Shown here: positions 1-49,538 of the stretch, in pieces
How the letters are laid out: every line of letters begins with the position of its first letter
How positions within the stretch are numbered: position 1 is the stretch's first letter
DNA from: Candidatus Nomurabacteria bacterium
Lineage (GTDB): Bacteria; Patescibacteriota; Minisyncoccia; Phycocordibacterales; UBA918
Length of the DNA stretch: 64,000 nt
Reading direction: 5' to 3'
Assembly (NCBI GenBank): GCA_020632135.1
Contig: JACKGC010000001.1
Span: 116,241 to 180,240 of the forward strand
The notes under the pieces: generated by a model
Seen by the model: only the letters and a program-made list of their open reading frames with translations
Told to the model about the DNA's origin: nothing
Database searches by the model: none
Program-made: the position numbers and the translations under genes

Positions 1-22
1 TGATAAATATAGCTAAAATGCT

Positions 23-161
23 GTAGCTGGCGGACAGGGACTCGTCCCGCCTTTTCTAATTCGCTACGCTCATAAGAACACTGGGCGCGGCTAGCCGACA
101 AGCCCTCCTCGTAAACTCGTCGTCTTGTGTACCGGCTCCGCCGTTCGATCCCCTGTCCGCC
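23..161 (-). repeat. tRNA-end hairpin module, copy Gln-B (anti-arm + structured core + duplicate of tRNA-Gln 3' end)
   Basis: Minus-sense 161->141 GGCGGACAGGGGATCGAACGG is near-complementary to the T-loop/acceptor 3' strand of tRNA-Gln. 44->23 CGAGTCCCTGTCCGCCAGCTAC is identical to 1143->1122. The core shares CGGAGCCGGTACACAAGACGA..GCTTGTCGGC with the Ser copy and GTTCTTATGAGCGTAGCGAATTAGAAA with the Met copy. Confidence 0.8.
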
Positions 162-251
162 GAGCAACGGCAAAGGCCGCAAACACTGACGTGTTTGCGG
201 CCTGCCGATTGCTGGCTGTATGGGACGAAGTTCGAACTTTTCTCACGTCGC

Positions 252-857
252 CTAAGTAAAACATCCTATGTACCATGGACCATAGAAATGCTTCGCGTTC
301 ATCAAATCACCATTAAATAGCTTCTTAACTCTTTGCAAGCCTTCTTCATCCCAATTCGACCAGTCTGGCTTAAATACACTCGCTTCCATAACAAAACCTG
401 TTTCGTCCCATATGAGAGCACACCAGTTGTCGAGAATACCTGTTCCATCTGGAAAGGCGACTCTCAGTTGCCCGTCTGAAACATCAGTTTCAAAGTAAAT
501 ATCCTTGTATGGACTATCGCTTGAAGTAAGTTTTTCTGACTGAATCAGACCAACGATTTCTTGGTATTGTGGCATCTTCAATATAGTAAAAATTTCGTAG
601 GAATTAAAAAACAGCAAAACTGCAACTACTACAACGGAAACTAATTTTAAGAAGTAGTAAAACACGCTCTTGATATTCCCTTTTTTAGAATACTTTGCGT
701 AACTTACGACAAAATACAACACCCCCACAAACAACAAAACTATTCCTAACAAATCAGACAGAAACCAAAATTTAACCAGCAACGGATATGAAAATAGACT
801 GTATGTAAGTAAACATATAGTCCACATTAGGAAAACATTAGTTTTAATTGATTCCAT
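252..857 (-). CDS. Hypothetical membrane protein (cassette cargo; N-terminal TM helices, soluble C-terminal domain)
   Basis: The ORF runs 252..947. The ATG at 857 (MESIKTNVFLMW...) is preferred because the upstream 30 codons lie in the module/att repeat. The N-terminal half is hydrophobic. No recognisable family. Confidence 0.5.
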   Translation of the reverse strand: MESIKTNVFLMWTICLLTYSLFSYPLLVKFWFLSDLLGIVLLFVGVLYFVVSYAKYSKKGNIKSVFYYFLKLVSVVVVAVLLFFNSYEIFTILKMPQYQEIVGLIQSEKLTSSDSPYKDIYFETDVSDGQLRVAFPDGTGILDNWCALIWDETGFVMEASVFKPDWSNWDEEGLQRVKKLFNGDLMNAKHFYGPWYIGCFT

Positions 858-920
858 ATCAAAAGTATACCTTATCAGGGACTCGAACTTTTTTATGTTG
901 CTAAATATAGCTAAATTGTT

Positions 921-1073
921 GTAGCTGGCGGACAGGGACTCGGTCACGAATCACTAAGTATATCCTTTCGCTTCGCTCATGATCTACTAAGTGTTCGCGA
1001 CCCCGGCTCGCTGTTCGTCGCGCTAGGAAGCGCGCTCCTCACAACGCTGCGCCTTTCTCGTCCCTGTCTCGGC
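921..1073 (-). repeat. tRNA-end hairpin module, copy Gln-A
   Basis: Minus-sense 1073->1057 GCCGAGACAGGGACGAG is imperfectly complementary to CGAGTCCCTGTCCGCC at 942->927. The core contains GCGTTGTGAGGAGCGCGC, GACGAACAGCGAGCCGGGGTCGCGAA and ATGAGCGAAGCGAAAGG. It ends GTGAC|CGAGTCCCTGTCCGCCAGCTAC. Confidence 0.75.
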
Positions 1074-1082
1074 ATCTATGAC

Positions 1083-1121
1083 GACAGAAAACACTCAGCG
1101 TGAAGCTGAGTGTTTTCTGTC
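1083..1121 (-). terminator. Perfect hairpin immediately 3' of tRNA-Gln
   Basis: gacagaaaacactcagc-gtga-gctgagtgttttctgtc forms a 17-bp stem. There is no clear U-tract after it. Confidence 0.45.
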
Positions 1122-1125
1122 GTAG

Positions 1126-1196
1126 CTGGCGGACAGGGACTCGAACCCCGATAGACGGCACCAAAAACCGTAGTCCTACCATTAGACGATCCGCCA
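1126..1196 (-). tRNA. tRNA-Gln(UUG)
   Basis: The reverse complement TGGCGGATCGTCTAATGGTAGGACTACGGTTTTTGGTGCCGTCTATCGGGGTTCGAGTCCCTGTCCGCCAG folds as a cloverleaf. The anticodon loop is TTTTGGT. CCA is not encoded. Confidence 0.9.
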
Positions 1197-1288
1197 AATA
1201 TATTGCTGTTGCATGACCATCGGTCGCGCGCCGAGATAGGGTATCATACTTTTGTTACTTTTTCAGCACCCCTTGCTACAATACCCAC

Positions 1289-1597
1289 ATGACCCACTAC
1301 GAAAAACTGGTGCGTGACCGCATACCCGAGATCCTTGAGTCCAAAGGCGTAGCCTATGAACAGCGAATTGCGACCGACGAAGAGTATCGCACTGAGCTCA
1401 TTAAAAAACTGCAAGAGGAAGCAACTGAATTTGCTGAAAGCGATGGCGATATCGAAGAACTAGCCGACGTACTTGAGGTCATTGCTGCGCTGCGTTCCCT
1501 CGCTGAGTACAATACCGTCACCAGCATCCAAGAGAAAAAGCGCACCGAACGTGGTGGCTTTTTGAAGCGATACATTCTCAAGGGAGAGAAGCCCTAG
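1289..1597 (+). CDS. MazG-like / phosphoribosyl-ATP pyrophosphohydrolase-like NTP pyrophosphatase
   Basis: 102 aa. KLVRDRIPEI, an EExxE-type acidic helix (EEATEFAESDGDIEELADVLEV) and the small all-helical size are typical of this family. Confidence 0.6.
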   Translation: MTHYEKLVRDRIPEILESKGVAYEQRIATDEEYRTELIKKLQEEATEFAESDGDIEELADVLEVIAALRSLAEYNTVTSIQEKKRTERGGFLKRYILKGEKP

Positions 1598-2031
1598 CGC
1601 GCCAAGAATTGATCAAGATAAATGGTAGAGAGAATACCAGCTGTTACCAATACACCCCCAACCACATTCCCCACCGTTGGCTTTTCGCCTAAAAAAACAA
1701 ACGCCATGATTATAGTGAGCGCAATACTCAGCTTATCGATCGGTGCCACTCGCGCCACCTCCCCGAGTTGCAAGGCCTTATAATAAAAGAGCCACGACGC
1801 ACCAGTCGCTAGTGCTGAAAGTACTAAAAAGGTCATGGTGTAGCGCGAGATCTCGAAGATCTCTTTGGCAGTGCCTTGCATCAAGACGATCCCCCACGCC
1901 ATGACCACAATGATCACGGTACGGATCGCCACCGCGAGATTGCTATTCACTCCTTCAATGCCGATCTTGCCGAAGATTGCCACCAAGGAAGCAAAGAAAG
2001 CCGAAAGGAGTGCGTACGTTACCCAAGTCAT
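1594..2031 (-). CDS. EamA/DMT-family small membrane transporter
   Basis: 145 aa with 4-5 TM helices. The N-terminus YALLSAFFASLVAIFGKIG is EamA-like. Confidence 0.6.
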   Translation of the reverse strand: MTWVTYALLSAFFASLVAIFGKIGIEGVNSNLAVAIRTVIIVVMAWGIVLMQGTAKEIFEISRYTMTFLVLSALATGASWLFYYKALQLGEVARVAPIDKLSIALTIIMAFVFLGEKPTVGNVVGGVLVTAGILSTIYLDQFLAR

Positions 2032-2035
2032 ACCT

Positions 2036-3706
2036 TTAATTTGATTCGTACGCTGCTTTCACAAACGCAGTAAAGAGTGGGTGCGGTGCCAGTGGTCGAG
2101 CCTGTAGCTCAGGATGAAACTGGACTCCGACAAAGAATGGGTGTTCGTTTTGTGGTAGCTCTACTATCTCCATCAGCGTACCGTCTGGTGAAGTACCAGA
2201 GAAGCGCAGGCCATGCATTTCCAGCTGTGCAATGTACTCAGGATTCACCTCATAGCGGTGGCGATGGCGCTCGATCGTTTCCTTAGCCTTATACGCCCGC
2301 GCCGCGATACTGCCCGCTTTTAAGACCGCCGGATACTGCCCCAAACGCATCGTGCCACCCATGTCATTATTGGCGATCTTCTCGCGTTGCTCCGGCATGA
2401 CACCGATCACCAGATGTGCAGCCTTGGGGTCGATCTCTTCGGTGCTCGCACCCACAAGGCGCACCACGTTGCGGGCGTATTCAAGAACCGCCAGCTGCAT
2501 GCCGTAACAGATTCCAAAATAGGGTATCTGTTGCTTGCGTACGTACTCGATCACATTGAGTTTTCCGTCGATGCCAGTAGTACCAAAACCACCCGGAATG
2601 AGCACGCCATCATACTTTTTCAACTCGCGCAGTTTCTTTTTATCAGCGAATTCTTGTGAGCTAAGGTAGGAGATCTCTGGCTTGAGATTGAGTTTGTAGG
2701 CGGAAAACTTGATCGCTTCCAGCACCGAAATATACACATCGGAAAGCACGAAATCGCCCGAATTAAAATACTTCCCTACCACTGCAATCTTCACGGTGTC
2801 ATTACCGTTTTTCGAGCGGCGCACAAACTGCTTCCAGGCCTTGAGATCGGCTGGCTTTTTGTTGGGCAAGCCAAGGATGTTGGCCAAACGCAGCGACATG
2901 CTGTCCTCCTCATAATTGAGCGGGATATCGTAAATACTCTCTAGGTCTGGAGAAGAAATGACATTCTCAACCTTCACGTTACAAAACTTCGCCATCTTCT
3001 CTTTGCGCTTCTGGTCGACCCCCTGCGGACTGCGGCACACGATCATATCGGCAAACACACCAGCGCTGTTAAGCATGCGCACCGCGGTCTGGGTCGGTTT
3101 GGTTTTCATCTCGCCGATCGAGCCCGGCACTGGCAGGTAGCTCACCATCACCACTGCTACATTCTCTGGTTCGTCGGTCTTCATCATGCGAATAGCTTCG
3201 AGGAAGAGGACGTTCTGGTACTCACCGACCGTACCACCAACCTCAATGAGTACAACGTCGGCGGCGGCCTTTCGCCCCGCTCGCTTAATGCGACTAATGA
3301 CCTCAAGCGGGATATCCGGCACCACCTCTACATTGCGGCCGCCGTACTCGAGATTGCGCTCTTTTTGAATGACTGATTGGTACACACTGCCGGTGGTCAT
3401 GTAGTTGATGCTGGGCAGGTCGGTATTGAGGAAGCGCTCATAGTTACCCATGTCTTGATCGGTCTCAAGACCATCCTTGAGCACAAATACCTCACCGTGC
3501 TCGGTAGGATTCATCGTGCCCGCATCTACATTAATGTAGGGATCGATCTTTATGGCAGTCACCTTATGTCCGCGCGCTTGAAGCACGGTCGCAATCGAAG
3601 AAGATGCCACACCCTTTCCCACGCCACTCATAACACCACCGACGACAAAAATGTATTTTGTCGCCGACTTCTTAACAGTCGTTTTGGTTTTGGTCTTTTT
3701 AGGCAT
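2036..3706 (-). CDS. pyrG: CTP synthase
   Basis: 556 aa. The N-terminal synthetase P-loop is VVGGVMSGVGKGVASSSI. The C-terminal GATase carries GICYGMQ and HRHRYEVN. Confidence 0.95.
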   Translation of the reverse strand: MPKKTKTKTTVKKSATKYIFVVGGVMSGVGKGVASSSIATVLQARGHKVTAIKIDPYINVDAGTMNPTEHGEVFVLKDGLETDQDMGNYERFLNTDLPSINYMTTGSVYQSVIQKERNLEYGGRNVEVVPDIPLEVISRIKRAGRKAAADVVLIEVGGTVGEYQNVLFLEAIRMMKTDEPENVAVVMVSYLPVPGSIGEMKTKPTQTAVRMLNSAGVFADMIVCRSPQGVDQKRKEKMAKFCNVKVENVISSPDLESIYDIPLNYEEDSMSLRLANILGLPNKKPADLKAWKQFVRRSKNGNDTVKIAVVGKYFNSGDFVLSDVYISVLEAIKFSAYKLNLKPEISYLSSQEFADKKKLRELKKYDGVLIPGGFGTTGIDGKLNVIEYVRKQQIPYFGICYGMQLAVLEYARNVVRLVGASTEEIDPKAAHLVIGVMPEQREKIANNDMGGTMRLGQYPAVLKAGSIAARAYKAKETIERHRHRYEVNPEYIAQLEMHGLRFSGTSPDGTLMEIVELPQNEHPFFVGVQFHPELQARPLAPHPLFTAFVKAAYESN

Positions 3707-6801: not shown

Positions 6802-6813
6802 ACCACCACGTTG

Positions 6814-7083
6814 AGCCAATGCTCGGGATTGAACCGAGGACCTCATCCTTCGCTTACACCCTTATTTTTTAATAATCGGCTATTAAGGGGCTAGACTGTA
6901 TCTTGTTCCTAGCAAGGAACTCCCTTGGCAGTCGTTCGGGCCTCGCGCTAGCGATGCCACGGTCTTGACCAGTCCGTTGGCTATTGACCGTTATTCAGGA
7001 TTCATCTGGTGCATTACTACACCAGCGGGCAGGGGTCTGTGCGACCCACCATGGATGCGCTCTACCGACTGAGCTACATTGGC
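6814..7083 (-). tRNA. tRNA-Thr(GGU) interrupted by a group I intron
   Basis: The 5' exon is GCCAATGTAGCTCAGTCGGTAGAGCGCATCCATGGT (7083->7048). The 3' exon is AAGGATGAGGTCCTCGGTTCAATCCCGAGCATTGGCT (6850->6814). The joined exons give a canonical 73-nt cloverleaf with loop AT-GGT-AA. Confidence 0.85.
6851..7047 (-). other. Group I intron (about 197 nt, no ORF) in the anticodon loop after U36
   Basis: The 5' exon ends in U and the intron ends in G. ACGGUCAAUAGCC, AACGACUGCC and CAAGAUACAGUCUAGCC resemble the conserved P/Q, R and S (AAGAUAUAGUC) core elements of group I introns. Splice positions are inferred to within a few nt. Confidence 0.7.
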
Positions 7084-7683
7084 ATATGAAGTTGTACGCA
7101 ATTCTTCGATTGCGCGGTAGATACTATCACGAATTTTTGTATTTGAAAAATAAATTGTAAGTACCCCGTATTCACTTTTGTGCCTATAGGTACCCTTTGC
7201 AACCGACTCGGAAACGACAACTTTTTGAAACTTTTCTGGTGAGACGCCCAGCCTCTTAGACCAATAGCTTCGAGCTAGGTCGGGACTAGTGTCAGTAAAA
7301 ATTTGCAACCCGAACCGTAGTCGAGTTTCATCAATTTTAAATATCGTTTTGAGGAAGTCTAGGAACACTCGAAGCAAATCAGGATCTGTATTCCCTAGGC
7401 GGATTGCCGTTTTGGACACTTTGTTACCTTCTCCCCACCACAAACCCAAGCCCAACCCATACAACAACCATTCCGACTCATTTCTTGGTTTTATGAAACG
7501 ATATGGGTCTCCACTAGGATTAGCTATCACATACTGTGCATCAGACAAACTACGTTTAGGTATAGCGTGTTTGCGCAACCAATAGTTTACCTTGTTTTCC
7601 GAACAACCCACCCGCACTGCAATTTGCTTTGCTGACTGTTTTTGTTCCACATAGACTTTCACAAGAAACTTTTTCTTCAGCAC
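6991..7683 (-). CDS. HTH + LAGLIDADG-like homing-endonuclease-like protein (free-standing; ORF runs into the tRNA-Thr gene)
   Basis: GTG start at 7683. The N-terminal HTH is SAKQIAVRVGCSENKVNYWLRKH. One LAGLIDADG-type motif is LLYGLGLGLWWGEGNK followed by LGNTDPDLLRVFLDFL. It is a paralog of 8617..9297. Homology ends near 7084, and the last ~30 codons are tRNA exon/intron sequence. Confidence 0.6.
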   Translation of the reverse strand: MLKKKFLVKVYVEQKQSAKQIAVRVGCSENKVNYWLRKHAIPKRSLSDAQYVIANPSGDPYRFIKPRNESEWLLYGLGLGLWWGEGNKVSKTAIRLGNTDPDLLRVFLDFLKTIFKIDETRLRFGLQIFTDTSPDLARSYWSKRLGVSPEKFQKVVVSESVAKGTYRHKSEYGVLTIYFSNTKIRDSIYRAIEELRTTSYANVAQSVERIHGGSHRPLPAGVVMHQMNPE

Positions 7684-7925: not shown

Positions 7926-7999
7926 GCGCTGGTAGCTCAACTGGTTAGAGCACCCGCCTGTCACGCGGGAGGTTGCGGGTTCGAGTCCCGTCTGGCGCG
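7926..7999 (+). tRNA. tRNA-Asp(GUC)
   Basis: GCGCTGGTAGCTCAACTGGTTAGAGCACCCGCCTGTCACGCGGGAGGTTGCGGGTTCGAGTCCCGTCTGGCGCG. The anticodon loop is CTGTCAC. Confidence 0.9.
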
Positions 8000-8004
8000 C
8001 AGAA

Positions 8005-8043: not shown

Positions 8044-8066
8044 ATCAAGCGACAGAGCAAAGTGCC

Positions 8067-8189
8067 TGCGCACTTTGCGTACGGACTCGAAAGCCGGAAC
8101 GATGTGAGGAATGTGTGACGAACGAGTGAGGCGGGGTCGCGAAAAATTTTCAGAGAAAATTTATTTGTGACCGAGTCCCGTCTGGCGCA
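8067..8189 (+). repeat. tRNA-end hairpin module, copy Asp (cargo-less mini-element)
   Basis: The anti-arm TGCGC..ACGGACTCGAA (8067-8090) is complementary to CGAGTCCCGT..GCGCA. The core is AGCCGGAACGATGTGAGGAATGTGTGACGAACGAGTGAGGCGGGGTCGCGAAAAATTTTCAGAGAAAATTT. It ends TGTGAC|CGAGTCCCGTCTGGCGC (8172-8188), identical to 7982-7998. Confidence 0.75.
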
Positions 8190-8203
8190 TCTAGTACATA
8201 AAC

Positions 8204-8230
8204 GGTCGGACCCTACGGGTCCGACCTTTT
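8204..8230. terminator. Bidirectional hairpin terminator
   Basis: ggtcggaccc-tac-gggtccgacc is flanked by an A-run and a T-run. Confidence 0.6.
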
Positions 8231-8246
8231 ATAAGGTGTCGACAGG

Positions 8247-8468
8247 AGGAATCGAACCTTACAGGTTCAGTACAGGTTGTCGCTGATTTTTTCGCCAGCT
8301 CAAAATCAGCTGGCAACCTTTTCGATCCCTCACAGACTGTCCCCCAGACAATCTGTGAGGAATCGAACCTTACAGGTTCAGTACAGGTTGTCGCTGATTT
8401 TTTCGCCAGCTCAAAATCAGCTGGCAACCTTTTCGATCCCTCACAGACTGTCCCCCGGACAATCTTCC
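8247..8468 (-). repeat. Two tandem 111-bp units of a variant tRNA-end hairpin module
   Basis: Units 8247-8357 and 8358-8468 are nearly identical. Each (minus-sense) reads TCTGTGAGGGATCGAAAAGG ... CTGTAAGG|TTCGATTCCTCACAGA. The array ends in an orphan tRNA-like 3' end, TCGATTCCTCCTGTCGACACC (8257->8237). Confidence 0.8.
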
Positions 8469-8506
8469 ATCGACAGCCAAGAACCTGCTAACGCGGTCTT
8501 TCTTTG

Positions 8507-8578
8507 TGCCGACGGGTAGAGTCGAACTACCGTCTAGGGTTTATGAGTCCCTCGTTCTAACCGTTGAACTACGCCGGC
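8507..8578 (-). tRNA. tRNA-Met(CAU), elongator-type (could also be Ile2)
   Basis: GCCGGCGTAGTTCAACGGTTAGAACGAGGGACTCATAAACCCTAGACGGTAGTTCGACTCTACCCGTCGGCA. The 1:72 pair is G:C and 11:24 is U:A. Confidence 0.8.
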
Positions 8579-8616: not shown

Positions 8617-9297
8617 CTAATTTCCACCCAGTTTACACGCTTCTATCAAACCCTGAATCTTGTACTTTAAATCAGTACTCTTACACACACGTAGAGACAA
8701 AACGCCGTAGTAAGAATCGTGATTCTCATACCGTTTTTTAGGTCTTCCCTTCAACATAATAAACTTGAACCTACCTGATGGTATATTTAGTTCTTTTGAC
8801 CAAAACAAAATAATATCCCGCTCCCGCTTCGCATGCGTTTCAGACACATACACATACGGAGTAAACTGTTCTTCAGACACATGCAAACAACGTTCAAACC
8901 ATAACTTACCAAGCTTTATCAGCTGCGGATCTGAGTTAACCAACGCAGCCATGCCGCTTCTAGATTTCACTCCCTCACCCCAATACAACCCTATTCCTAA
9001 AAGACGTAGATCACGCTCAGACAATTTTCCGATCTCAACAACACCTTTTTCTTGATAATCCCTAATCGCCGCCAGTCGCTTCTCCCTGTTCTTGTTTGCA
9101 CCAATCTGTCTTCCGACATTACCAGCATCGATCTGCTTCTGCTGTAACTTTTCCTTCTGTTTATCAGTCAATGAAATACCCTGACACCAGGCACTGACCG
9201 AACTTTTTGACACACCAAGAACAGCTGCAATATCTTTAATACTCTGACCACGGCGACGTAACTCAATCGCGCGCTTCTTCTGTGCTGGTTTAGACAT
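8617..9297 (-). CDS. HTH + LAGLIDADG-like homing-endonuclease-like protein (free-standing)
   Basis: 226 aa. The HTH is SIKDIAAVLGVSKSSVSAWCQG. The motif LRLLGIGLYWGEGVKS is followed by LVNSDPQLIKLGKLWFERCL. It is a paralog of 6991..7683 and ends 38 nt upstream of tRNA-Met. Confidence 0.6.
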   Translation of the reverse strand: MSKPAQKKRAIELRRRGQSIKDIAAVLGVSKSSVSAWCQGISLTDKQKEKLQQKQIDAGNVGRQIGANKNREKRLAAIRDYQEKGVVEIGKLSERDLRLLGIGLYWGEGVKSRSGMAALVNSDPQLIKLGKLWFERCLHVSEEQFTPYVYVSETHAKRERDIILFWSKELNIPSGRFKFIMLKGRPKKRYENHDSYYGVLSLRVCKSTDLKYKIQGLIEACKLGGN

Positions 9298-9329: not shown

Positions 9330-10025
9330 TTACACAACAGTCACACTTGAGCGTACCTTGAGTAGTTTCTCAGCTCGCTCCACATCCTCAGGGTAACCGA
9401 TCGGAATCCACACTTGCTGCTCTACCACAGCAATCGGATACTTCTTGGCGTACTCACGCACCATGTCCGTGTGGTAGAACTCACCATTCATGAGCACCTT
9501 TGGCTCAAATTCAAAGATATTCTCATCAAGCACAAATACCCCGGTTGAAGCCATATTAGACGGAGGTAACGCGGGCTTCTCGATCATCTCAGCGAGTGTG
9601 CCATCTGGGTGCCGCACCACGATCCCGAAGCGTTCTGGAGTGGTAGTAGTGAGTGTCAGCATTGAACGAGTGAAAGAAGTGGCTCGCGCAATGTCCTGCG
9701 CACCGTGGAGATCATCGGCAAACATGAAGAGGAACCGGCCCTTGATGTGTTCCTTACACAACCAAAGCGCGTGCCCGGTCCCTTTCTGTTCTTCTTGCGT
9801 CACATAAGTTACTTTCCGGCCCTTAAATTGTGTCCCGCAGTGCTCTTTGATCTGATCCTCTAAGTACCCGGTCACAATGATCAGTTCTTTAACCGCACTC
9901 GGTAGCGACTCAACGATATGCTCCAGAAGTGGCTTACCCGCTACTTTTACGAGCGGTTTTGGAGTGTCATCGGTGAGGGGGCGCAGGCGTGTTCCTTTAC
10001 CAGCGGCCAAAATTACACATTGCAT
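9330..10025 (-). CDS. Sugar-phosphate nucleotidyltransferase (G1P thymidylyl/uridylyltransferase-like)
   Basis: The start is MQCVILAAGKGTRLRPLTDDTPKPL, the classic NTP-transferase N-terminal motif. Confidence 0.75.
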   Translation of the reverse strand: MQCVILAAGKGTRLRPLTDDTPKPLVKVAGKPLLEHIVESLPSAVKELIIVTGYLEDQIKEHCGTQFKGRKVTYVTQEEQKGTGHALWLCKEHIKGRFLFMFADDLHGAQDIARATSFTRSMLTLTTTTPERFGIVVRHPDGTLAEMIEKPALPPSNMASTGVFVLDENIFEFEPKVLMNGEFYHTDMVREYAKKYPIAVVEQQVWIPIGYPEDVERAEKLLKVRSSVTVV

Positions 10026-11565: not shown

Positions 11566-11726
11566 TTGTTGCGGGGCCCGGAATCGACATCAAGTTTCTA
11601 ATTCGCTACGCTCATAAGAACTTGTTGGCTCGGCTCGTCTGTTTTTGCTCTAGGAAATGAGCAAAAACATGACTCCGCCCGTTCGATTCCGACGCAAGCC
11701 AAGCAGTTGGCTTGCTGACCCCGCAG
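11566..11726 (-). repeat. tRNA-end hairpin module, copy Met (cargo-less mini-element)
   Basis: The minus-sense anti-arm is CTGCGGGGT[25-nt inserted hairpin]TCGGAATCGAACGG. The core is GCGGAGTCATGTTTTTGCTC..GAGCAAAAACAGACGAGCCGAGCC..GTTCTTATGAGCGTAGCGAATTAGAAA. It ends in TCGATTCCGGGCCCCGCAACAA (11587->11566), identical to 11794->11773. Confidence 0.75.
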
Positions 11727-11773: not shown

Positions 11774-11775
11774 TG

Positions 11776-11846
11776 TTGCGGGGCCCGGAATCGAACCGGG
11801 GTCTGGAGGTTATGAGCCTCCCGAGGTACCTCTCCTCTACCCCGCT
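11776..11846 (-). tRNA. tRNA-Met(CAU), initiator-like
   Basis: AGCGGGGTAGAGGAGAGGTACCTCGGGAGGCTCATAACCTCCAGACCCCGGTTCGATTCCGGGCCCCGCAA. It has an A1.A72 mismatch, an A11:U24 pair and G30G31:C39C40 in the anticodon stem. Confidence 0.8.
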
Positions 11847-11880
11847 GTATGCTGTTTACTTGTTTTCTTCTTCTACAACT

Positions 11881-11947
11881 GTCTCCAGGGAGGTTACGAG
11901 AGCAAATTTGATCGCTCCGCTCGGTCCCTCTCCTCTACCCCGCTGTA
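11881..11947 (-). repeat. Partial pseudo-copy of the 5' half of tRNA-Met upstream of the gene
   Basis: Minus-sense ACAGCGGGGTAGAGGAGAGG (identical to the tRNA 5' end), then GACCGAGCGGAGCGATCAAATTTGCTCTCG, then TAACCTCC (the 3' side of the anticodon arm). No T-arm is present. Confidence 0.7.
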
Positions 11948-12005
11948 TTAAAACACCGCAGAGCGGTACGACAAAACCATACACCATCTATGGTCTTTTA
12001 GCAAA

Positions 12006-12629
12006 CTAACTGATACCAAACTCATTGAACACTCGCTGGTACCGAGTGATGGTTTCTTGCGCTACACGCTTGGTAAGCACGAAGTCGGCACCATCATGCG
12101 CAATGCGATTGCGTATCTTGTGCGCTTCCCAAGCGTCCTGCAGGGTGGAAAGTTGCTCAGAGGAAAGACTCTTGAGGCGCTCACCAAGCGAAGTGCCCGG
12201 GTAACCACGCTCTTTGAGTACACTATCGAGAATGATATCGGCTTCAATGATGGCAAGTTTCCAGTCGTTCGGATTTTCAGACTCAATGTGCGTGAACACG
12301 TCCTTGAGGCGGTTGCTGCTTGCTGTGCCACGGTATCGTTCATCGTAGAGGCGTTCAGCGTCACGAAGCTTCTGGGTTTGCAAGCCGACATAGAGGTTCT
12401 TGCGAGTTGATGCATATACATAGAGTACGAGTAGGATGATGGAGAAGATGTACGCCAGGATGGTGTAGATCGACCAGAGCACACTTAGGAAGCCCAGAAT
12501 ACCGGCCCAAGAAATAGCGGTGGCAAAGTCGGGTAGACTCTGAAAGAACCCAGAGCCACCTTTAATAGACACACTCGGAATAGTGAGTCCGGAAGTTGCT
12601 ATTGGTCCTGGAATGATCTCTGGTTGCAT
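12006..12629 (-). CDS. Hypothetical membrane-anchored protein with C-terminal helical domain carrying an RNxxxH motif
   Basis: 207 aa with one or two TM helices (WAGILGFLSVLWSIYTILAYIFSIILLVLYVY). The C-terminus is WEAHKIRNRIAHDG. Confidence 0.4.
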   Translation of the reverse strand: MQPEIIPGPIATSGLTIPSVSIKGGSGFFQSLPDFATAISWAGILGFLSVLWSIYTILAYIFSIILLVLYVYASTRKNLYVGLQTQKLRDAERLYDERYRGTASSNRLKDVFTHIESENPNDWKLAIIEADIILDSVLKERGYPGTSLGERLKSLSSEQLSTLQDAWEAHKIRNRIAHDGADFVLTKRVAQETITRYQRVFNEFGIS

Positions 12630-12632
12630 GCG

Positions 12633-14048
12633 CTATGTGCGCTCGTCGTAGATAGCCTTACCAATATGGAAAAGACGAGCATCACCACCATGTGGTCCTA
12701 TGTATTGTACCCCAACTGGCAGCTGCTTTCCTTCTCCTTCCACTGTTCCCATCGGAAACGTAAGTGCTGGCACGCCCGTGAGATTAACTGGCACTGTGAA
12801 AATGTCCTGCTTATACATCGCCAGCGGATCTTCATTTGAACCAAATTTGAAGGCGGGTGTTGGTGCGGTCGGGGTCAAAATGATATCGACTGTTTTGAAT
12901 ACTTCGTCGAGCTCCTGGCGCATTTGTTTGCGTACGAGCTCAGCCTTACCGTAGTAAGCGTCATAGTAGCCAGAAGACAGCACATAGGTACCAAGGAGTA
13001 CGCGACGCTTCACCTCTGCGCCCAAGCCCTCAGCGCGGGTCTTTTCGTATACATCAAGCAGATTGTCGCCTTCCACGGAGAGTCCGTAACGAATACCGTC
13101 ATAGCGAGCCAAATTCGAAGACACCTCAGCGGGCATCACGATGTAATATGCAGCGAGACCTTTTTCGAAGAGCGGCAGCTCAATGTCGACTACCTTGTGT
13201 CCAGCGGCGGTCAGTACCGCAATATGTTGCTCAAACGCTTCGAGTACACTAGCGTCAACTCCTTCTTTAAGGAAGTGTCGGGGTACACCGAAAGTGTACG
13301 CATCCTTAGTTGTGACTGCCGGATACGTGTCGTCAGTGATAGTGGTAGCATCCATCTTATCCAAGCCAGCTATGGTGTGGTGGATCAACTCAGCGTCGGC
13401 GACAGAGTTAGTGAGTGGACCAGCCTGGTCGAGTGATGAACCCATCGCAATGAGTCCATAGCGTGAGACCGCACCGTACGTAGGCTTGAACCCTACCAAA
13501 CCACAATAGCTCGCCGGCTGGCGGATGGAACCACCAGTGTCAGTACCAAGGGCCACCGGAACCGCGCCCATCGCCACCGCTGCGGCCGAACCACCTGAAG
13601 AACCGCCCGGCACACGAGTAGTGTCTACCGGGTTCTTGGTGGGGCCAAAGGCAGAGTTTTCGGTTGAGCCACCCATAGCGAACTCGTCGAGGTTGGTGGC
13701 ACCGACTACGATTGCACCTGCGGCCTTTAGTTTTTCAACGATCGTCGCATCATAGACCGCCGTGTAGTTCTCAAGGATTTTAGACGCAGCGGTCGCTTTC
13801 TTCCCCTTCATGAGAATGTTGTTTTTAAGTGCGATCGGCACTCCTAAGAGCGGTGGCGTGTCAGCCCCTTTTTCAGCGTAGAGTGTGTCGGCGGCTTTGG
13901 CTGCTTCGAGCGCGTCTTCGTAGACCGCAAGGAAGGCGTGGATCTCTTCGTCCTTTTCCTTGATGACGGCCAAAGCCGCCGCAACTGCCTCACTTGGCTT
14001 CATTTCTCCTTTGATGTACGCAGTGCGTAATTCAGCTACTGTCTTCAT
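12633..14048 (-). CDS. gatA: Asp/Glu-tRNA(Asn/Gln) amidotransferase subunit A
   Basis: 471 aa. The amidase signature is GGSSGGSAAAVA. It lies directly downstream of gatC. Confidence 0.95.
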   Translation of the reverse strand: MKTVAELRTAYIKGEMKPSEAVAAALAVIKEKDEEIHAFLAVYEDALEAAKAADTLYAEKGADTPPLLGVPIALKNNILMKGKKATAASKILENYTAVYDATIVEKLKAAGAIVVGATNLDEFAMGGSTENSAFGPTKNPVDTTRVPGGSSGGSAAAVAMGAVPVALGTDTGGSIRQPASYCGLVGFKPTYGAVSRYGLIAMGSSLDQAGPLTNSVADAELIHHTIAGLDKMDATTITDDTYPAVTTKDAYTFGVPRHFLKEGVDASVLEAFEQHIAVLTAAGHKVVDIELPLFEKGLAAYYIVMPAEVSSNLARYDGIRYGLSVEGDNLLDVYEKTRAEGLGAEVKRRVLLGTYVLSSGYYDAYYGKAELVRKQMRQELDEVFKTVDIILTPTAPTPAFKFGSNEDPLAMYKQDIFTVPVNLTGVPALTFPMGTVEGEGKQLPVGVQYIGPHGGDARLFHIGKAIYDERT

Positions 14049-14049
14049 A

Positions 14050-14349
14050 CTATTCGCTATCAGTGTCTAAGATCTTCTTCACCGCCATAAAGCGCCCTTC
14101 GGTCGCTGGCATTTCTGCCAAGATATCCTTCGTGTACTGATCTGGTTCGTTAGTCACTTCATCCTTGCGAAAGACGTTATGCCGCGCGCCAACCTGCGGC
14201 GCAGCATCATCATCGCCGGCAGCAATATCACTCACCACACTCACGTACTCCACGATCAATGATAATTTTTCTTCCAGATTCTCAAGCTCTTCATCCGAGA
14301 GGCGGATGCGGGCCAAGTTTGCCAAATGCGCAATTTCTTCCTGTTTCAT
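14050..14349 (-). CDS. gatC: Asp/Glu-tRNA amidotransferase subunit C
   Basis: MKQEEIAHLANLARIRLSDEELE is a typical GatC N-terminus. The ATG at 14349 is used. Confidence 0.85.
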   Translation of the reverse strand: MKQEEIAHLANLARIRLSDEELENLEEKLSLIVEYVSVVSDIAAGDDDAAPQVGARHNVFRKDEVTNEPDQYTKDILAEMPATEGRFMAVKKILDTDSE

Positions 14350-14384
14350 GGGGCTAGCATAGCATTTGTGCAAAAAATGTGAAA

Positions 14385-17000
<2,616 letters not shown>

Positions 17001-17017
<17 letters not shown>

Positions 17018-17630
17018 TAAATAAGTACGTTTCGACAACTGACTCCTGTACGTCGCGACGTGAGCCAGTACGCCAGGTGACACGAGAAGTCACTTTAATC
17101 TCATCTGGTCTAGCAGGATCGTCCTCTAATTTAATGACCCGGGTGTAGGGAGTCTCCTCATTACCACTCGCGGTGTGAGTATACCGTGAACGTTCCCCAT
17201 CCTCGTCATAGTATAAGCGGCATGAGCTGCTATTGGTACCACAGTCAATCGGAGCTTTTAGTGAACCATCCGGATCAGTATTGAGCCCCAGACCACAACC
17301 ATCAGAGTTGGTGGCGACATAACAGTTTCGGTACGTACCATTTCGATCTGCGAACAAGTTCCACTGATCAGTGTTATTGAGCTCGTTGTCCAACACTGAA
17401 TCGAACTTAGTACTAAACGCTTGCAGGTACAAGTCATCGCGAGCGCGCTGTACCATTTCCACGCCTTCTTGCGCCAGGAAGAAGGCTACCACTTGCTCAC
17501 TTGCAAAACTCGTACTTCGAGCCGTTGAAGTACTCACCACCATCGGCCCAGTGATAACGATCAACAATAACGTGATCGCGACGAGCGTCTCAACTAAGCT
17601 AAAGCCACTTTCTGGTGTTGGGTGATGCAT
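17001..17630 (-). CDS. Type IV pilin-like protein (prepilin N-terminal cleavage/methylation domain)
   Basis: MHHPTPESG|FSLVETLVAITLLL. Confidence 0.7.
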
Positions 17631-17632
17631 AC

Positions 17633-18361
17633 TTATAAGTTTAATGAACGTTGTGTGACCGTAGTCTGGATCTCATACACCTTCGATGAGTCCGCCACCT
17701 CGCGTGCCTGCAGGTAAATGGTCACCATTGGTTGGATCTCATCTAAACTACCCACCACTCGTGTACTACCAGTTACATAGAACTCAGCGTCCGTGATAAA
17801 AATACCTGACGAGACGATCGACTGCGCCTCCTCTCCGCTCAAACGCCGGTAGATCTTTCCTTCATCTTTATCATAAAAGTACACGATCCGGTCATTTGAA
17901 AGACCGCCGGTTATACTACTACCGCCTTCGGTAAAGGTAATGCCATGGATGGGATATCCATCTGGATACGAAAGGTTTCCCACATTACCATTCTCACAAT
18001 CTTGAGTCTTATGTAATCTCGCCATTGGGTTGGTAATGTCTTGGGGGTCAAGTGCGTCTAGTGGCGCATTATCCTCAAAAATGTGCACGGATGCCGTGGT
18101 GAATGCTGCATCTCTATCGTCGCCAGACGCACAAAAATAAGCCGCTCCAGTACGGATCTCGCGGGTCATACTATCAAGCGCAAAAGAGAGGTTGGTCATG
18201 ACACTCTGTTCGCTCTGGAGGCGTTGGTTGGATGAGATCAGCATCAACAGCGCTCCAACGGCGATAGTGATCACAACTGAAAATAACGCCAGCGCAACAA
18301 GCATCTCCACGAGAGTGAAGCCATGATGAGCGCGCGGTGTGTTGAAATGATGGTACGGCAT
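17633..18361 (-). CDS. Type IV minor pilin (PilW-like)
   Basis: AHHG|FTLVEMLVALALFSVV. Confidence 0.7.
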   Translation of the reverse strand: MPYHHFNTPRAHHGFTLVEMLVALALFSVVITIAVGALLMLISSNQRLQSEQSVMTNLSFALDSMTREIRTGAAYFCASGDDRDAAFTTASVHIFEDNAPLDALDPQDITNPMARLHKTQDCENGNVGNLSYPDGYPIHGITFTEGGSSITGGLSNDRIVYFYDKDEGKIYRRLSGEEAQSIVSSGIFITDAEFYVTGSTRVVGSLDEIQPMVTIYLQAREVADSSKVYEIQTTVTQRSLNL

Positions 18362-18363
18362 AA

Positions 18364-19002
18364 CTATTCAGGGCAATCGAGTAAGGCGATCTGTCCCGTG
18401 CGAGTGATCTCGATCGTGCGGTAGTGACTACCACACTCAGTCCCGCTCATACCACGGCGGGCCACGTCGATCTCGATACTAGGCGCGTCAATTTGATCAC
18501 CTGGAGCGCGAAAGAAACGGGCATCAAAGTTTGGCCGCTCAAATACAACTGAAACATCGTCACTACTGAGTGACTCTCCCCCAACGGCACGGATCGCTCC
18601 GATCTCAAATCGTTGATCGAGCTCGCTGATCGGACCAAATTGTTCGTTGGGACTCGAAGTATAAAATTCATCTTCATTCAGGTCGCGGAAAAAAATATAG
18701 TAGCCGTTATTGTTAGTGCTGCTATCAAAATACAGTCCGTATACTTGACGGAAATCGCCCGTGTCACCACTGGCACTCACGGCACTGAGTTGCACTTCAC
18801 GGATCCCGAGCGCAATATCAAAGGCTTGGCTGCGCAGCAACAGCGCACTGTTGAAAGTGGAGTGACGTACGACCACCACCGATGCCACCAAGACCATCAC
18901 GGTAATGGCCACCATAAGCTCAATGAGCCCAAAGCCAGCCTGATTGCCGCGCGCTTCGCGCGCGGCCCGTTCATTAGTTGAAGCTAAAAAGTGCCAAGAC
19001 AT
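18364..19002 (-). CDS. Type IV minor pilin (FimT/GspH-like)
   Basis: NQAG|FGLIELMVAITVMVLV. Confidence 0.7.
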   Translation of the reverse strand: MSWHFLASTNERAAREARGNQAGFGLIELMVAITVMVLVASVVVVRHSTFNSALLLRSQAFDIALGIREVQLSAVSASGDTGDFRQVYGLYFDSSTNNNGYYIFFRDLNEDEFYTSSPNEQFGPISELDQRFEIGAIRAVGGESLSSDDVSVVFERPNFDARFFRAPGDQIDAPSIEIDVARRGMSGTECGSHYRTIEITRTGQIALLDCPE

Positions 19003-19813: not shown

Positions 19814-19886
19814 ACAGTTGTGTCGGCTTGGAAAAGCTTGGCTTATTATACCAGCTCTGTTCGCACTAACTTGAGAGCCAAGCACC

Positions 19887-19913
19887 AAAAAAGGCCGCAA
19901 GGCGGCCTTTTTT
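19887..19913 (-). terminator. Rho-independent terminator after pilA
   Basis: aaaaaaggccgc-aa-ggcggcctttttt. Confidence 0.75.
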
Positions 19914-19930
19914 GAAATGCTATAAACTAA

Positions 19931-49210: not shown

Positions 49211-49340
49211 ATTTCACCACACATCAGTAACTTTCAGAAAATTGGGACACTCCATTTCAATCAAAGAGGTTTTAACTTCGTACAAAGATTTCCACGAGTA
49301 CAAAATCAGCTCACGCGTTTGCGTGGGCGATTTTTGTTCG

Positions 49341-49538
49341 TGGAGATGGGAGCGAGTGACCTGCGTCACTCGCGAGGTAATCGAAACGCCGGAGCGATGT
49401 TTTCTGCGGCTTTTGCCCGCCGCAGAAAACAAGCGAGGCGTGACCCGCGGCACCGTGTATTTTTGTGCACGAAGTGCTACAAAATACGCTGGTGACCGTC
49501 AGGTCAATTCCCGTCATCTCCACCAAATCTGAAGCAAA
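49341..49538 (+). repeat. tRNA-end hairpin module, copy tmRNA
   Basis: The anti-arm TGGAGATGGG[25-nt inserted hairpin]GGTAATCGAAAC is complementary to GTTTCGATTACCCCCATCTCCA of tmRNA. The core is GCCGGAGCGATGTTTTCTGCGG..CCGCAGAAAACAAGCGAGGCGTGACC plus a second hairpin. It ends GGTGACCGTCAGG|TCAATTCCCGTCATCTCCACCA. Confidence 0.8.

What the first reader, a model, noticed from the sequence alone, without database searches (positions are those of the whole stretch)
1..1196. Tandem cassette array behind tRNA-Gln that appears to continue past the window edge
The 22-nt tRNA-Gln 3' block gtagctggcggacagggactcg occurs three times in direct orientation: 1122-1143 (the real gene), 921-942 and 23-44. 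Between the copies lie an empty element (hairpin plus module, ~200 bp) and a ~900-bp element with one AT-rich membrane-protein ORF plus hairpin plus module. The 18 nt beyond copies 2 and 3 are also alike (aaatatagctaaattgtt versus aaatatagctaaaatgct). The sequence leaving the window at position 1 therefore looks like the start of yet another element. Two further degenerate T-arm-like fragments flank the cargo ORF: cagggactcgaac at 876-888, and 211-240. This suggests nested or serial insertions. Same-orientation, single-gene units each ending in a foldable site resemble an integron cassette array, here anchored on a tRNA T-loop.
Basis: seen in the sequence. Interest (0 to 1): 0.78.

Follow-up and report, generated by a model that had tools for sequence, protein, structure and literature searches.

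The report
Serial insertions with target-mimicking hairpin modules
Behind a glutamine tRNA gene lie three small inserted DNA units, two of which end in a conserved, undescribed folded element that copies the tRNA's tail in both orientations; the same element sits behind other tRNA, tmRNA and ftsZ genes in related tiny bacteria, which suggests a new way of docking DNA onto essential genes.

Summary
The 22-mer occurs three times (0 expected), the spacings are 201 and 898 bp, and the cargo ORF is AT-rich.

The repeats bound a serial-insertion array at the 3' end of tRNA-Gln. I read three units:
- an "empty" unit: terminator hairpin plus module 1
- a cargo unit: a 201-aa membrane ORF
- a second empty unit: decayed tRNA-end copy, hairpin, module 2

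Each module is about 135-155 nt. An inverted copy (S') and a direct copy (S) of the tRNA's 3' end enclose a conserved multi-helix core.

The module is a family. It also follows tRNA-Asp, tRNA-Met, tRNA-Ser and tmRNA in this window. In other Patescibacteria contigs it follows tRNA-Gln, tRNA-Glu and the end of ftsZ. There the arms copy the ftsZ 3' end, and the displaced copy still encodes the same peptide with synonymous codons.

The core shows strong covariation: 18 of 30 pairs have compensatory changes. Conserved G·U pairs show that the sense strand folds. It has no Rfam match and is more conserved than neighbouring genes.

No recombinase was found in the window. My best model is Campbell-type integration through a folded single-strand attachment site, as in CTXφ attP or integron attC. 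An RNA role is not excluded. Whether the array continues past position 1 could not be tested.

The parts
1125..1196 (-). tRNA-Gln(UUG), the target gene. Its last 19 nt plus 3 trailer nt (1122-1143) form copy S_a of the repeated block.
   Evidence: ARAGORN; Rfam tRNA 54 bits; 22-mer match
1081..1123 (-). Hairpin 1: 19-bp stem, 5-nt loop, terminator-like with an A-tract and a U-tract inside the stem. It lies directly after the tRNA. The stem base (ACAGAAAA/TTTTCTGT) is shared with relatives while the top of the stem differs but stays paired.
   Evidence: Inverted repeat I1, 100% complementary; fold; counterparts in L036 and L046. The simple terminator scan did not call it.
943..1080 (-). Module 1 (B-type). 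It holds an inverted copy S' of the tRNA 3' end (about 1055-1075) followed by the conserved core. The core has a three-helix junction with a variable hairpin, then a long irregular hairpin with a U·U mismatch and a GAGCGAAGCGAA loop. It ends in GTGAC|C.
   Evidence: Covariance model R1, 125.8 bits, E 1e-30, at 942-1057; inverted repeat I13; fold z = -8.8; 86.7% identical to the L036 counterpart
921..942 (-). S_b: direct copy of the tRNA 3' end. It forms the 3' arm that closes module 1.
889..920 (-). Y1: sequence following S_b. Its first 22 nt resemble Y2 (1-22).
   Evidence: D1 (93% over 44 nt)
876..888 (-). Partial tRNA T-loop/T-stem copy (GTTCGAGTCCCTG). With 883-892 it forms the left copy of the 10-nt direct repeat AAAAGTTCGA that brackets the ORF.
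   Evidence: D3 and D17
252..857 (-). Cargo ORF: 201 aa, three N-terminal hydrophobic helices plus a soluble C-terminal domain, AT-rich. No Pfam or PADLOC match.
   Evidence: Only 4 homologues were found; the two whose contexts were looked up (51% and 43% identical) lie in loci with no tRNA gene and no module.
211..241 (-). Decayed copy of the tRNA 3' end (GTTCGA+5 nt+GTCCC..GCCAGC), preceded by the right copy of AAAAGTTCGA. I read it as the boundary between the cargo unit and the second empty unit.
   Evidence: D17
172..205 (-). Hairpin 2: 13-bp G+C-rich stem followed by UUUGCCGUU. It is terminator-like and lies downstream of the cargo ORF.
   Evidence: Inverted repeat I8; fold
45..171 (-). 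Module 2 (A-type, a divergent family member). It holds a 19-nt inverted copy S' of the tRNA 3' end including the T-loop (143-161), then the core.
   Evidence: Inverted repeats I2/I4; fold z = -6.3 with a 12-bp closing stem; exact 27-mer shared with the tRNA-Met module; exact 20-mer shared with the tRNA-Ser module. Direct family scores are weak: CM 9.6 bits, leave-one-out nhmmer E 0.028.
23..44 (-). S_c: direct copy of the tRNA 3' end that closes module 2. It is probably the original chromosomal tRNA end.
   Evidence: The arm duplex is -36.5 kcal/mol, the strongest of 22 modules.
1..22 (-). Y2: flank after S_c, similar to Y1. It is either native downstream sequence or the start of a further unit; this is unresolved.
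8045..8190 (+). Sister module behind tRNA-Asp (empty unit), followed by an intrinsic terminator.
   Evidence: CM 68.8 bits; counterpart in L036 94% identical
11566..11715 (-). Sister module behind tRNA-Met 11775-11846 (empty unit).
   Evidence: CM 43.1 bits
30256..30400 (-). Sister module behind tRNA-Ser. A 308-aa AT-rich cargo ORF (30519-31445) lies between the tRNA and the module.
   Evidence: CM 30 bits; arm duplex -35.8 kcal/mol
49340..49530 (+). Sister module behind tmRNA (47491-47899). A 352-aa cargo ORF (48087-49145) lies between them. The direct repeat covers the tmRNA end plus its terminator, about 55 nt.
   Evidence: CM 37 bits

Best explanation
The region is a hotspot of serial, Campbell-type site-specific insertions into the 3' end of tRNA-Gln.

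Each incoming unit brings its own copy (S) of the tRNA's last ~22 nt, so the gene stays intact. The previous copy is pushed downstream. This produces the direct repeats.

In tRNA direction I read three units:
1. hairpin 1 + module 1 (an "empty" unit, also present at the same place in a related species)
2. Y1 + the 201-aa cargo ORF
3. a decayed S + hairpin 2 + module 2 (a second empty unit)
These are followed by the original S and flank.

The module is the unusual part. It is an inverted copy of the target's 3' end (S'), then a conserved ~100-116-nt multi-helix core, then the direct copy S. S' and S can pair and rebuild the target duplex on a single strand. The crossover maps to the foot of the last core hairpin (GTGAC|C...).

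My proposal is that the module is an attachment site that works as a folded single strand, like the CTXφ attP(+) hairpin or an integron attC. A recombinase encoded elsewhere would act on it, and S' would set which gene is targeted.

Shown: the repeats, the module family, its fold, its association with the 3' ends of genes, and the replacement of gene ends.

Inferred: single-stranded DNA (rather than RNA) as the active form, the enzyme, and present-day mobility.
For: Repeats and anatomy.

Family:
- Five further sites in this window lie behind tRNA-Asp, tRNA-Met, tRNA-Ser and tmRNA.
- Relatives lie behind tRNA-Gln, tRNA-Glu and ftsZ in other Patescibacteria contigs.

Arms copy the local target:
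- Cognate arm duplexes average -18.7 kcal/mol against -14.4 for non-cognate pairs, and are strongest for Gln2 and Ser.
- In L036 both arms follow that species' own tRNA-Gln sequence.
- In L044 S' matches the gene-proximal copy.

Gene-end replacement: in L042 and L044 the ftsZ end and the displaced copy both encode VPAFLRRSKLK* with only synonymous differences. Two separately evolved functional gene ends were therefore joined by recombination.

Folded single strand:
- 30 consensus pairs are 97.7% paired. 18 have compensatory double changes, against 7.8±1.6 in shuffles and 1-5 in slid controls.
- G·U is conserved at two positions of the sense strand (14/15 and 8/15), so the sense strand is the one that folds.

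Maintained in place:
- Cores are 86.7% and 94% identical between the window and L036. tRNA-Gln is 78.7%, pyrG 78.3% and the mazG-like gene 74.3%.
- The S copies that have a partner S' are perfect, while the unpaired copy (211-237) has decayed.

A terminator hairpin precedes every module, and no sigma-70-like promoter was found. This argues against a dedicated transcript.

No recombinase lies in the units or among about 40 ORFs scanned in the window. CTXφ likewise encodes none. CTXφ has two oppositely oriented target-like sites about 90 bp apart that form a 150-nt hairpin (PMC3089051).
Against: - No enzyme was identified.
- No circular or empty-site junction was recovered, so current mobility is not shown. 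The only strain-level variant is a 633-bp contig that diverges at the end of S.
- G·U pairs, conserved loops (GAGCGUAGCGAA; CUGC) and a conserved U·U mismatch are equally typical of a structured RNA.
- Strong conservation in the integrated state is not expected of a purely selfish attachment site.
- The empty unit nearest the tRNA is shared with a related species. Under "newest is proximal" this needs independent insertion or horizontal spread.
- Cargo units can occur without a module, so the module is not required for every insertion at these sites.
- Module 2 matches the family model only weakly.
- Most related sequences were fetched with a pattern taken from the core. This inflates apparent conservation of that stretch, though not the covariation elsewhere.
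Confidence: 0.5

Rival explanations
1. The module is a structured non-coding RNA carried at the end of the inserted units. It might be a guide or scaffold RNA for a recombinase or nuclease, in the manner of IS110 bridge RNAs or TnpB/IscB guide RNAs. Alternatively it might be a cis-acting RNA that affects the upstream gene's 3' end. The S'/S helix would simply be its closing stem.
For: - Covariation is strong and strand-specific, with conserved G·U pairs, a U·U mismatch and conserved loops.
- It is always in the sense orientation of the target gene.
- It is conserved in place above the level of neighbouring genes.
- In many loci an intrinsic terminator follows module+S.
Against: - A terminator-like hairpin lies between the target gene or cargo and every module, and no promoter was found in front of it.
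- The downstream terminator is explained as the displaced original terminator.
- No protein partner gene is adjacent.
- Bridge-RNA guides pair with neighbouring halves of the target, not with each other.
- No Rfam family matches.
Confidence: 0.3
2. These are ordinary decayed remnants of tyrosine-integrase genomic islands at a tRNA gene. The repeats are attL/attR cores. The "module" is the conserved double-stranded arm region, with Int/Xis/IHF binding sites, of a family of islands that have lost their integrase and most genes.
For: - Tandem islands separated by partial tRNA copies are well known, for example tycheposons (10.1101/2020.12.28.424599).
- The direct repeats start in the T-loop, a classical crossover location (established knowledge).
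- Replacement of the target gene's 3' end is typical of such islands.
Against: - Double-stranded binding sites do not predict compensatory base-pair changes or strand-asymmetric G·U pairs.
- An inverted copy of the core site that changes with each target is not a feature of arm regions.
- Several independent loci share the same minimal content of terminator plus module (Gln1, Asp and Met in the window; L036, L046, L047, ftsZ loci).
- The modules are more conserved than flanking genes, so they are not decaying.
- No module was found in the phage, plasmid or viral collections.
Confidence: 0.12
3. The array arose by local tandem duplication of [module + tRNA end + flank], followed by divergence and a chance ORF insertion. 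No site-specific mechanism would be involved.
For: Y1 and Y2 are 18/22 identical and follow identical 22-mers.
Against: - The two module cores are only 52% identical and belong to different subtypes. Module 2 shares exact 20-27-mers with modules at other tRNAs, not with module 1.
- The same architecture recurs at unrelated genes, with arms specific to each gene.
Confidence: 0.03
4. The module is a single-strand replication origin (ssoA-like) of small rolling-circle elements that have integrated.
For: - The terminal loop contains TAGCGA, like the CS-6 motif TAGCGT of ssoA.
- Asp-type modules contain GAGAAAATTTATT, like the RSB site (PMC4598088).
- The function would be strand-specific and depend on folding.
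Against: - The module profile gave no hit against a staphylococcal ssoA-bearing plasmid, even at E<=100.
- No Rep gene was found.
- The idea does not explain target-derived arms.
Confidence: 0.05

Closest known systems
CTXφ-type integration (IMEX elements using XerCD at dif)
   Same: - Two copies of the target-like sequence lie in opposite orientation about 90-120 nt apart and can fold into a ~150-nt hairpin that mimics the duplex target.
- The element encodes no recombinase.
- The integrated state keeps the functional target plus extra target-like copies.
- Serial arrays form at one site (PMC3089051).
   Different: - The target here is not dif but the 3' end of whichever conserved gene is used (tRNA, tmRNA, ftsZ).
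- The loop between the arms is a sequence-conserved, covarying multi-helix core.
- Units can be as small as ~200 bp with no genes.
- Involvement of Xer recombinases is untested.
Integron gene-cassette arrays (attI / attC / IntI)
   Same: - Same-orientation small units, often with one ORF, each end in an imperfect inverted-repeat site that folds as a single strand and contains a variable-length internal hairpin.
- The crossover lies at the foot of the folded site.
- ORF-less units exist.
   Different: - No intI, attI or Pc was found.
- The arms are 13-22 nt copies of the local target, not R''/R' (RYYYAAC/GTTRRRY).
- The core is conserved in sequence, whereas attC sites are not.
- There are many anchoring genes per genome instead of one platform.
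- Cargo can be separate from the module.
tRNA/tmRNA-targeting genomic islands in tandem arrays (e.g. tycheposons, ICE/CIME accretion)
   Same: - Partial copies of the tRNA 3' end separate successive units.
- The target gene is restored by the element.
- tmRNA is also used as a target.
- Remnants and cargo-only units occur (10.1101/2020.12.28.424599).
   Different: - Those elements carry tyrosine recombinases and are kilobases long.
- No inverted target copy or structured module has been described for them, to my knowledge.
IS110-family bridge RNA / IS200-IS605 guide-specified targeting
   Same: A non-coding structured segment at the element end contains sequence matching the target. Specificity could in principle be reset by changing it.
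   Different: - No DEDD or HUH transposase gene is nearby.
- Those systems duplicate only 0-2 nt of the target.
- Their guides are not complementary to each other.

Membership tests
Integron | An integron integrase gene (intI) next to the array, with attI and promoter Pc | tested here: not met
   About 40 ORFs across the 64-kb window were scanned with Pfam. None is a tyrosine recombinase. The neighbours of tRNA-Gln are mazG-like, eamA, pyrG and ftsX/E. The genome outside the window was not examined.
Integron | attC sites with R''-L''...L'-R' boxes and a GTTRRRY core shared by all cassettes | tested here: not met
   The repeated arm differs with each target gene (Gln, Asp, Met, Ser, tmRNA, ftsZ). 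The junction is GTGAC|C....
Integron | Cassette sites recombine as folded single strands, with structure conserved rather than sequence | tested here: inconclusive
   A strand-specific fold is supported by covariation. Whether the folded strand is DNA or RNA is unknown, and the sequence is also conserved.
tRNA-integrating tyrosine-integrase island | Direct repeats of the tRNA 3' portion flank the element, and the tRNA is restored | tested here: met
tRNA-integrating tyrosine-integrase island | An integrase gene lies inside the element next to an att site | tested here: not met
   The units are 201 bp and ~900 bp. The only ORF has no Pfam match.
CTXφ-like IMEX | Two inverted target-like sites that fold into a hairpin attP on one strand | tested here: met
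   S' lies about 100 nt from S. Predicted closing stems are 12 bp or longer, with fold z = -6.3 and -8.8.
CTXφ-like IMEX | Integration at dif by host XerCD | tested here: not met
   The targets are the 3' ends of genes, not dif. The identity of the enzyme cannot be tested with these tools.
Any Rfam 15 RNA family | A covariance-model match | tested here: not met
   In 1-3000 at E<=10, only the tRNA and spurious miRNA-type hits on hairpin 1 were found. The whole-window scan at gathering threshold found only 7 tRNAs and the tmRNA.
MITE / transposon | Terminal inverted repeats at both element ends plus a short target-site duplication of identical sequence | tested here: not met
   The unit ends (a hairpin at one side, GTGAC at the other) are not inverted repeats of each other. 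The duplicated ftsZ ends differ by synonymous changes, so they were not made by fill-in.
ssoA single-strand origin | RSB and CS-6 elements in a long hairpin, homologous to known ssoA | tested here: not met
   Only 6-13-nt motif resemblances were found. nhmmer against pKH21 gave no hit.

The most novel reading that the evidence does not exclude
Patescibacteria may carry a cassette-docking system in which a conserved folded module (single-stranded DNA or RNA) recruits a trans-acting recombinase. The module's inverted arm S' would specify, by base pairing, which essential gene's 3' end is used as the landing site. This would be an integron-like platform with programmable, multi-site attachment, able to spread ~200-bp empty units and to nucleate arrays of accessory genes.
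Probability: 0.25. Interest if true: 0.9.

Novelty: new variant of a known kind. Interest (0 to 1): 0.78.

Why it matters
Patescibacteria (CPR) have tiny genomes, and few classical mobile elements have been recognised in them. How they acquire accessory genes is poorly understood.

This locus reveals a recurrent, structurally conserved element at the 3' ends of essential genes (tRNAs, tmRNA, ftsZ). It marks insertion hotspots and carries a copy of its own target in both orientations.

If the module is a folded attachment site or a guide, it would add a third example to the very short list of recombination systems that use folded single strands (integron attC, CTXφ). Its specificity would appear to be set by simple complementarity, which is of evolutionary interest and possibly of use as a tool.

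Even on the conservative reading, it is a new covariation-supported structured motif absent from Rfam. It also gives a practical marker for genomic islets in CPR genomes.

Tried and rejected
**Extending past position 1**
- Exact-protein look-ups of the mazG-like neighbour and of the cargo returned only contigs ending at window 94-248 or 1090-1164.
- A 651-kb contig is on record but could not be retrieved.

**Collection scans**
- A scan of species-representative genomes for the fragment pattern returned 19 hits, one per contig, in phylogenetically unrelated genomes. I did not read them further. The later module-profile search of all loci gave these loci only weak matches (E 0.0046 to 0.63) confined to the tRNA-end arm positions.
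- The first metagenome scan for the exact fragment found nothing.
- The viral, phage and plasmid collections gave only tRNA-Gln matches or chance words.

**Ideas tested and set aside**
- Cargo homologues as a route to other cassettes: the two homologues of the Gln cargo that I looked up lie in loci with no tRNA gene and no module.
- ssoA homology: rejected at profile level.
- Group I intron: the published Patescibacteria tRNA introns sit in the anticodon loop (PMC13011429). The module lies after an intact gene and has no Intron_gpI match.
- tRNA-minihelix mimicry (an RNA processed by RNase P/Z): rejected because ftsZ-associated modules use ftsZ sequence for the same stem.

**Evidence I decided not to rely on**
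- Contig breaks as evidence of population heterogeneity: they coincide with tRNA and module sequences that are conserved across species, and such sequences break de Bruijn assemblies anyway.
- A recombinase in the window: none was found. The two HTH proteins near the tRNA cluster look like LAGLIDADG-type homing endonucleases. This rests on my reading of the GLxxWGEG motif, not on a profile match.
Full report
**1. Observation**

The 22-mer GTAGCTGGCGGACAGGGACTCG occurs at 23-44, 921-942 and 1122-1143, all on the + strand. No match appeared in 100 shuffles, even with 3 mismatches allowed.

tRNA-Gln(UUG) lies at 1125-1196 on the minus strand. In tRNA sense the block is CGAGTCCCTGTCCGCCAG+CTAC. 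It runs from T-loop position 56 through the T-stem and acceptor 3' strands and the discriminator, plus a few trailer bases.

The 22 nt beyond copies 2 and 3 are also alike: 1-44 versus 899-942 is 93% identical. Spacings are 898 and 201 bp.

A 201-aa ORF runs 857->252 on the minus strand. Its GC is 32-42% against about 50% around it.

The fragment at 876-888 equals 1134-1146. The fragment at 211-237 is a decayed copy, GTTCGA+5 nt+GTCCC+5 nt+GCCAGC. Only it and the tRNA match that pattern in the window (I designed the pattern after seeing the fragment).

**2.

Each "module" also contains an inverted copy (S') of the tRNA 3' end. S' lies at 143-161, which is 19 nt, 89% complementary and includes the T-loop. 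A second S' lies at 1055-1068. Each is about 100 nt from the direct copy S (I2, I4, I13).

Both modules fold with S' and S as a long closing stem. The free energies are -100 and -105 kcal/mol, with z = -6.3 and -8.8.

The stem includes T-loop bases. It therefore reproduces the double-stranded gene sequence, not the tRNA's own fold.

**3. The module is a family, not a peculiarity of tRNA-Gln**

A 12-mer screen showed that other tRNAs in the window have 3'-end copies nearby. Reading these loci gives one recurring order:

target gene - terminator hairpin - (optional ORF) - (hairpin) - S' - conserved core - S - often a second terminator

| Target gene | Module | Cargo between gene and module |
|---|---|---|
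| tRNA-Asp 7926-8000 | 8045-8190 | none |
| tRNA-Met 11775-11846 | 11566-11715 | none |
| tRNA-Ser 31494-31583 | 30256-30400 | 308-aa AT-rich ORF |
| tmRNA 47491-47899 | 49340-49530 | 352-aa ORF; repeat of ~55 nt includes the terminator |

The five or six copies align. None of the three cargo ORFs has a Pfam or PADLOC match.

Module 2 of the Gln locus is a divergent "A-type" member:
- It shares an exact 27-mer with the tRNA-Met module.
- It shares an exact 20-mer with the tRNA-Ser module.
- It scores only weakly against the B-type model: CM 9.6 bits, leave-one-out nhmmer E = 0.028.

**4. Relatives**

NCBI names the source organism Candidatus Kaiserbacteria or Nomurabacteria, both Patescibacteria.

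The nearest retrievable relative is L036 (GCA_020632075.1), whose mazG-like neighbour is 75% identical at protein level. The locus is syntenic:
- There, tRNA-Gln is followed by a hairpin, a module of the module-1 type, S, an intrinsic terminator and msrAB. There is no cargo and no second module.
- Both arms follow that species' own tRNA-Gln sequence.
- The internal variable hairpin differs in sequence but stays paired.
- The tRNA-Asp module is also present there.

The cores are more alike between the two genomes than the surrounding genes are:

| Segment | Identity, window vs L036 |
|---|---|
| Gln module core | 86.7% |
| Asp module core | 94% |
| tRNA-Gln | 78.7% |
| pyrG | 78.3% |
| mazG-like gene | 74.3% |

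Either strong constraint or more recent spread would explain this. Because insertion is site-specific, sharing the same position does not prove vertical inheritance.

**5. Beyond tRNAs**

A metagenome scan with a core-derived pattern gave ten loci. Profile and covariance-model searches found modules in all of them:
- behind tRNA-Gln (L046, L047)
- behind tRNA-Glu (L045, L042)
- behind the stop codon of ftsZ (L042, L044/L040, L045, L049; ftsZ confirmed by Pfam in L042 and L045)

In the ftsZ loci, S' is the inverted copy of the last ftsZ codons and S is a second copy of them. In L042 and L044 both copies encode VPAFLRRSKLK-stop but differ at many synonymous positions. In L044, S' matches the gene-proximal copy.

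Two functional gene ends that evolved separately have therefore been joined. This is the signature of Campbell-type integration by an element that carries a replacement 3' end. It is not a target-site duplication made by fill-in, and not a local duplication.

The point of identity loss places the crossover at the junction between the core's last helix and S (GTGAC|C...). Tandem modules also occur behind ftsZ (L042, L045) and in L048.

**6. Structure**

On 15 B-type cores, RNAalifold gives 30 pairs, 18 of which have compensatory double changes.

The independent count gives:
- 97.7% of cells paired.
- 18 pairs with double changes, against 7.8±1.6 in column shuffles (0 of 500 shuffles reach 18) and 1-5 in slid controls.

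Two positions are G·U in the sense strand (14/15, and 8/15 alternating with G-C). These would be C·A in the antisense strand, so the strand with the sense of the target gene is the one that folds.

Features of the fold:
- a three-way junction with a variable-length hairpin
- a ~25-bp irregular hairpin with a conserved U·U (T·T) mismatch
- a terminal loop GAGCGUAGCGAA
- in many copies, an extra hairpin with a CUGC loop before S'

No Rfam family matches.

**7. Reading the Gln array**

In tRNA direction the order is:

tRNA·S_a | hairpin 1 - S'1 - core 1 | S_b | Y1 - partial S (876-888) - ORF | decayed S (211-237) | hairpin 2 - S'2 - core 2 | S_c | Y2

The tRNA-Ser cargo shows that cargo and module are separable. 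A 70% homologue lies behind tRNA-Ser in L058 with no module. It is flanked by a ~24-nt repeat made of the tRNA end plus its terminator.

I therefore read three units at Gln: B-type empty, cargo, and A-type empty.

The S copies that have a partner S' (S_b, S_c) are perfect, while the unpartnered copy has decayed. This suggests that the S'-core-S unit is under selection in place.

**8. Mechanism**

Shown: serial recombinational insertion with gene-end replacement; a conserved, strand-specific fold whose closing arms copy the target; no enzyme gene in the units or in the window.

Inferred: the module is an attachment site that acts as a folded single strand.

The closest precedent is CTXφ. It has two oppositely oriented dif-like sites about 90 bp apart that form a 150-nt hairpin. 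It encodes no recombinase, and the integrated state keeps extra site copies (PMC3089051). Integron attC is the other precedent.

Two observations support a DNA role. A terminator lies before each module, and no promoter was detected.

I cannot exclude that the active form is RNA, acting as a guide or scaffold. Conserved loops and wobble pairs fit both.

An ssoA-like origin was considered because of a TAGCGA loop motif. It was rejected at profile level.

**9. Limits**

- Nothing upstream of position 1 could be retrieved. The source contig is ~651 kb. The locus tag H6778_00820 for a gene at 30.5 kb suggests the window is internal to it, so "continues past the edge" remains open.
- Evidence for current mobility is thin. 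It rests on one short contig with a different sequence right after S and a one-base difference inside S.
- Contig breaks at tRNAs and modules are probably assembly effects of conserved k-mers.
- Most relatives were fetched through a core-derived pattern. E-values from the shortened calibration are rough.

**10. Verdict**

It is not an integron and not a plain decayed island. It is a member of an apparently undescribed family of target-mimicking structured modules that mark serial insertion sites at the 3' ends of essential genes in Patescibacteria. Full-text searches found no description of it.

I class it as a new variant of known site-specific integration systems, with a substantial chance of being something more novel.

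Noticed in passing
window 6812-6850 and 7057-7083 (minus strand): tRNA-Thr(GGT) appears split. Its 3' half ends at the anticodon loop at 6812-6850. Its 5' part lies at 7057-7083 and is identical to the 5' part of the tRNA-Thr(GGT) in the relative L036. About 200 nt lie between the halves. ARAGORN and Rfam miss the gene. It is probably a group I intron in the anticodon loop, as reported for Patescibacteria (PMC13011429), but no Intron_gpI match was found.
   Followed up: partly
window 6991-7683 and 8617-9297 (minus strand): Two paralogous ORFs (29% identity) have an N-terminal HTH_23 domain and a GLGLWWGEG / GIGLYWGEG motif resembling LAGLIDADG homing endonucleases. They flank the tRNA-Thr/Asp/Met cluster and are absent from the syntenic region of L036. 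No Pfam endonuclease match was found.
   Followed up: partly
window 8230-8460: Two tandem ~112-nt units have T-loop-like arms (GGGATCGAAAAGG ... GGTTCGATTCCTC) and lie downstream of tRNA-Met 8506-8578. The array ends at 8239-8259 in a tRNA 3' fragment. That fragment resembles the tRNA-Met of relative L036 rather than the adjacent tRNA-Met. This may be a shorter module type with a relic of an older tRNA end.
   Followed up: no
window 11830-11850 / 11927-11949; 31598-31615 and 31719-31729; L036 9710-9760 / 9860-9910: The 5' ends of tRNAs are also duplicated. A direct copy lies 77-150 nt upstream, and for tRNA-Ser there is an inverted copy as well. The intervening segment holds a hairpin whose loop carries the same GAGCGTAGCGA-like motif as the 3' modules. 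This suggests a related mini-module on the 5' side of tRNA genes.
   Followed up: no
L008 1-45 (ENA contig, otherwise 99.8% identical to window 1125-1700): A strain-level variant. The sequence after tRNA-Gln differs completely from the window starting right at the end of the 22-nt block. The block itself has one change (GCCGG for GGCGG) that would mismatch the acceptor stem. This fits a different unit inserted at the same crossover, but a chimeric assembly is also possible.
   Followed up: partly
modules of window 1055-1075, L036, L046, L047: In the Gln1-type modules the inverted arm has GAG where perfect complementarity needs TCG. This gives a conserved tandem G·A/A·G mismatch next to the inferred crossover. 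The cargo-linked modules (Gln2, Ser) have near-perfect arms instead.
   Followed up: no
L031 3193-3216 (IMG/VR contig): A 24-nt stretch, CTAATTCGCTACGCTCATAAGAGG, lies in an intergenic gap of a viral contig. Its first 21 nt equal the A-type module loop region. No other part of the module is present. It may be chance or a shared short binding motif.
   Followed up: no
L042 5599-7317: A GmrSD-type restriction endonuclease gene lies directly after the module+S behind tRNA-Glu, in the same orientation. It may be defence cargo in a further unit of that array.
   Followed up: no
window 12000-28000: A large type IV pilus / competence-type gene block is present (PilM, PilB/T-like ATPases, T2SSF, prepilin peptidase). 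It is relevant because DNA uptake would supply single-stranded DNA.
   Followed up: no
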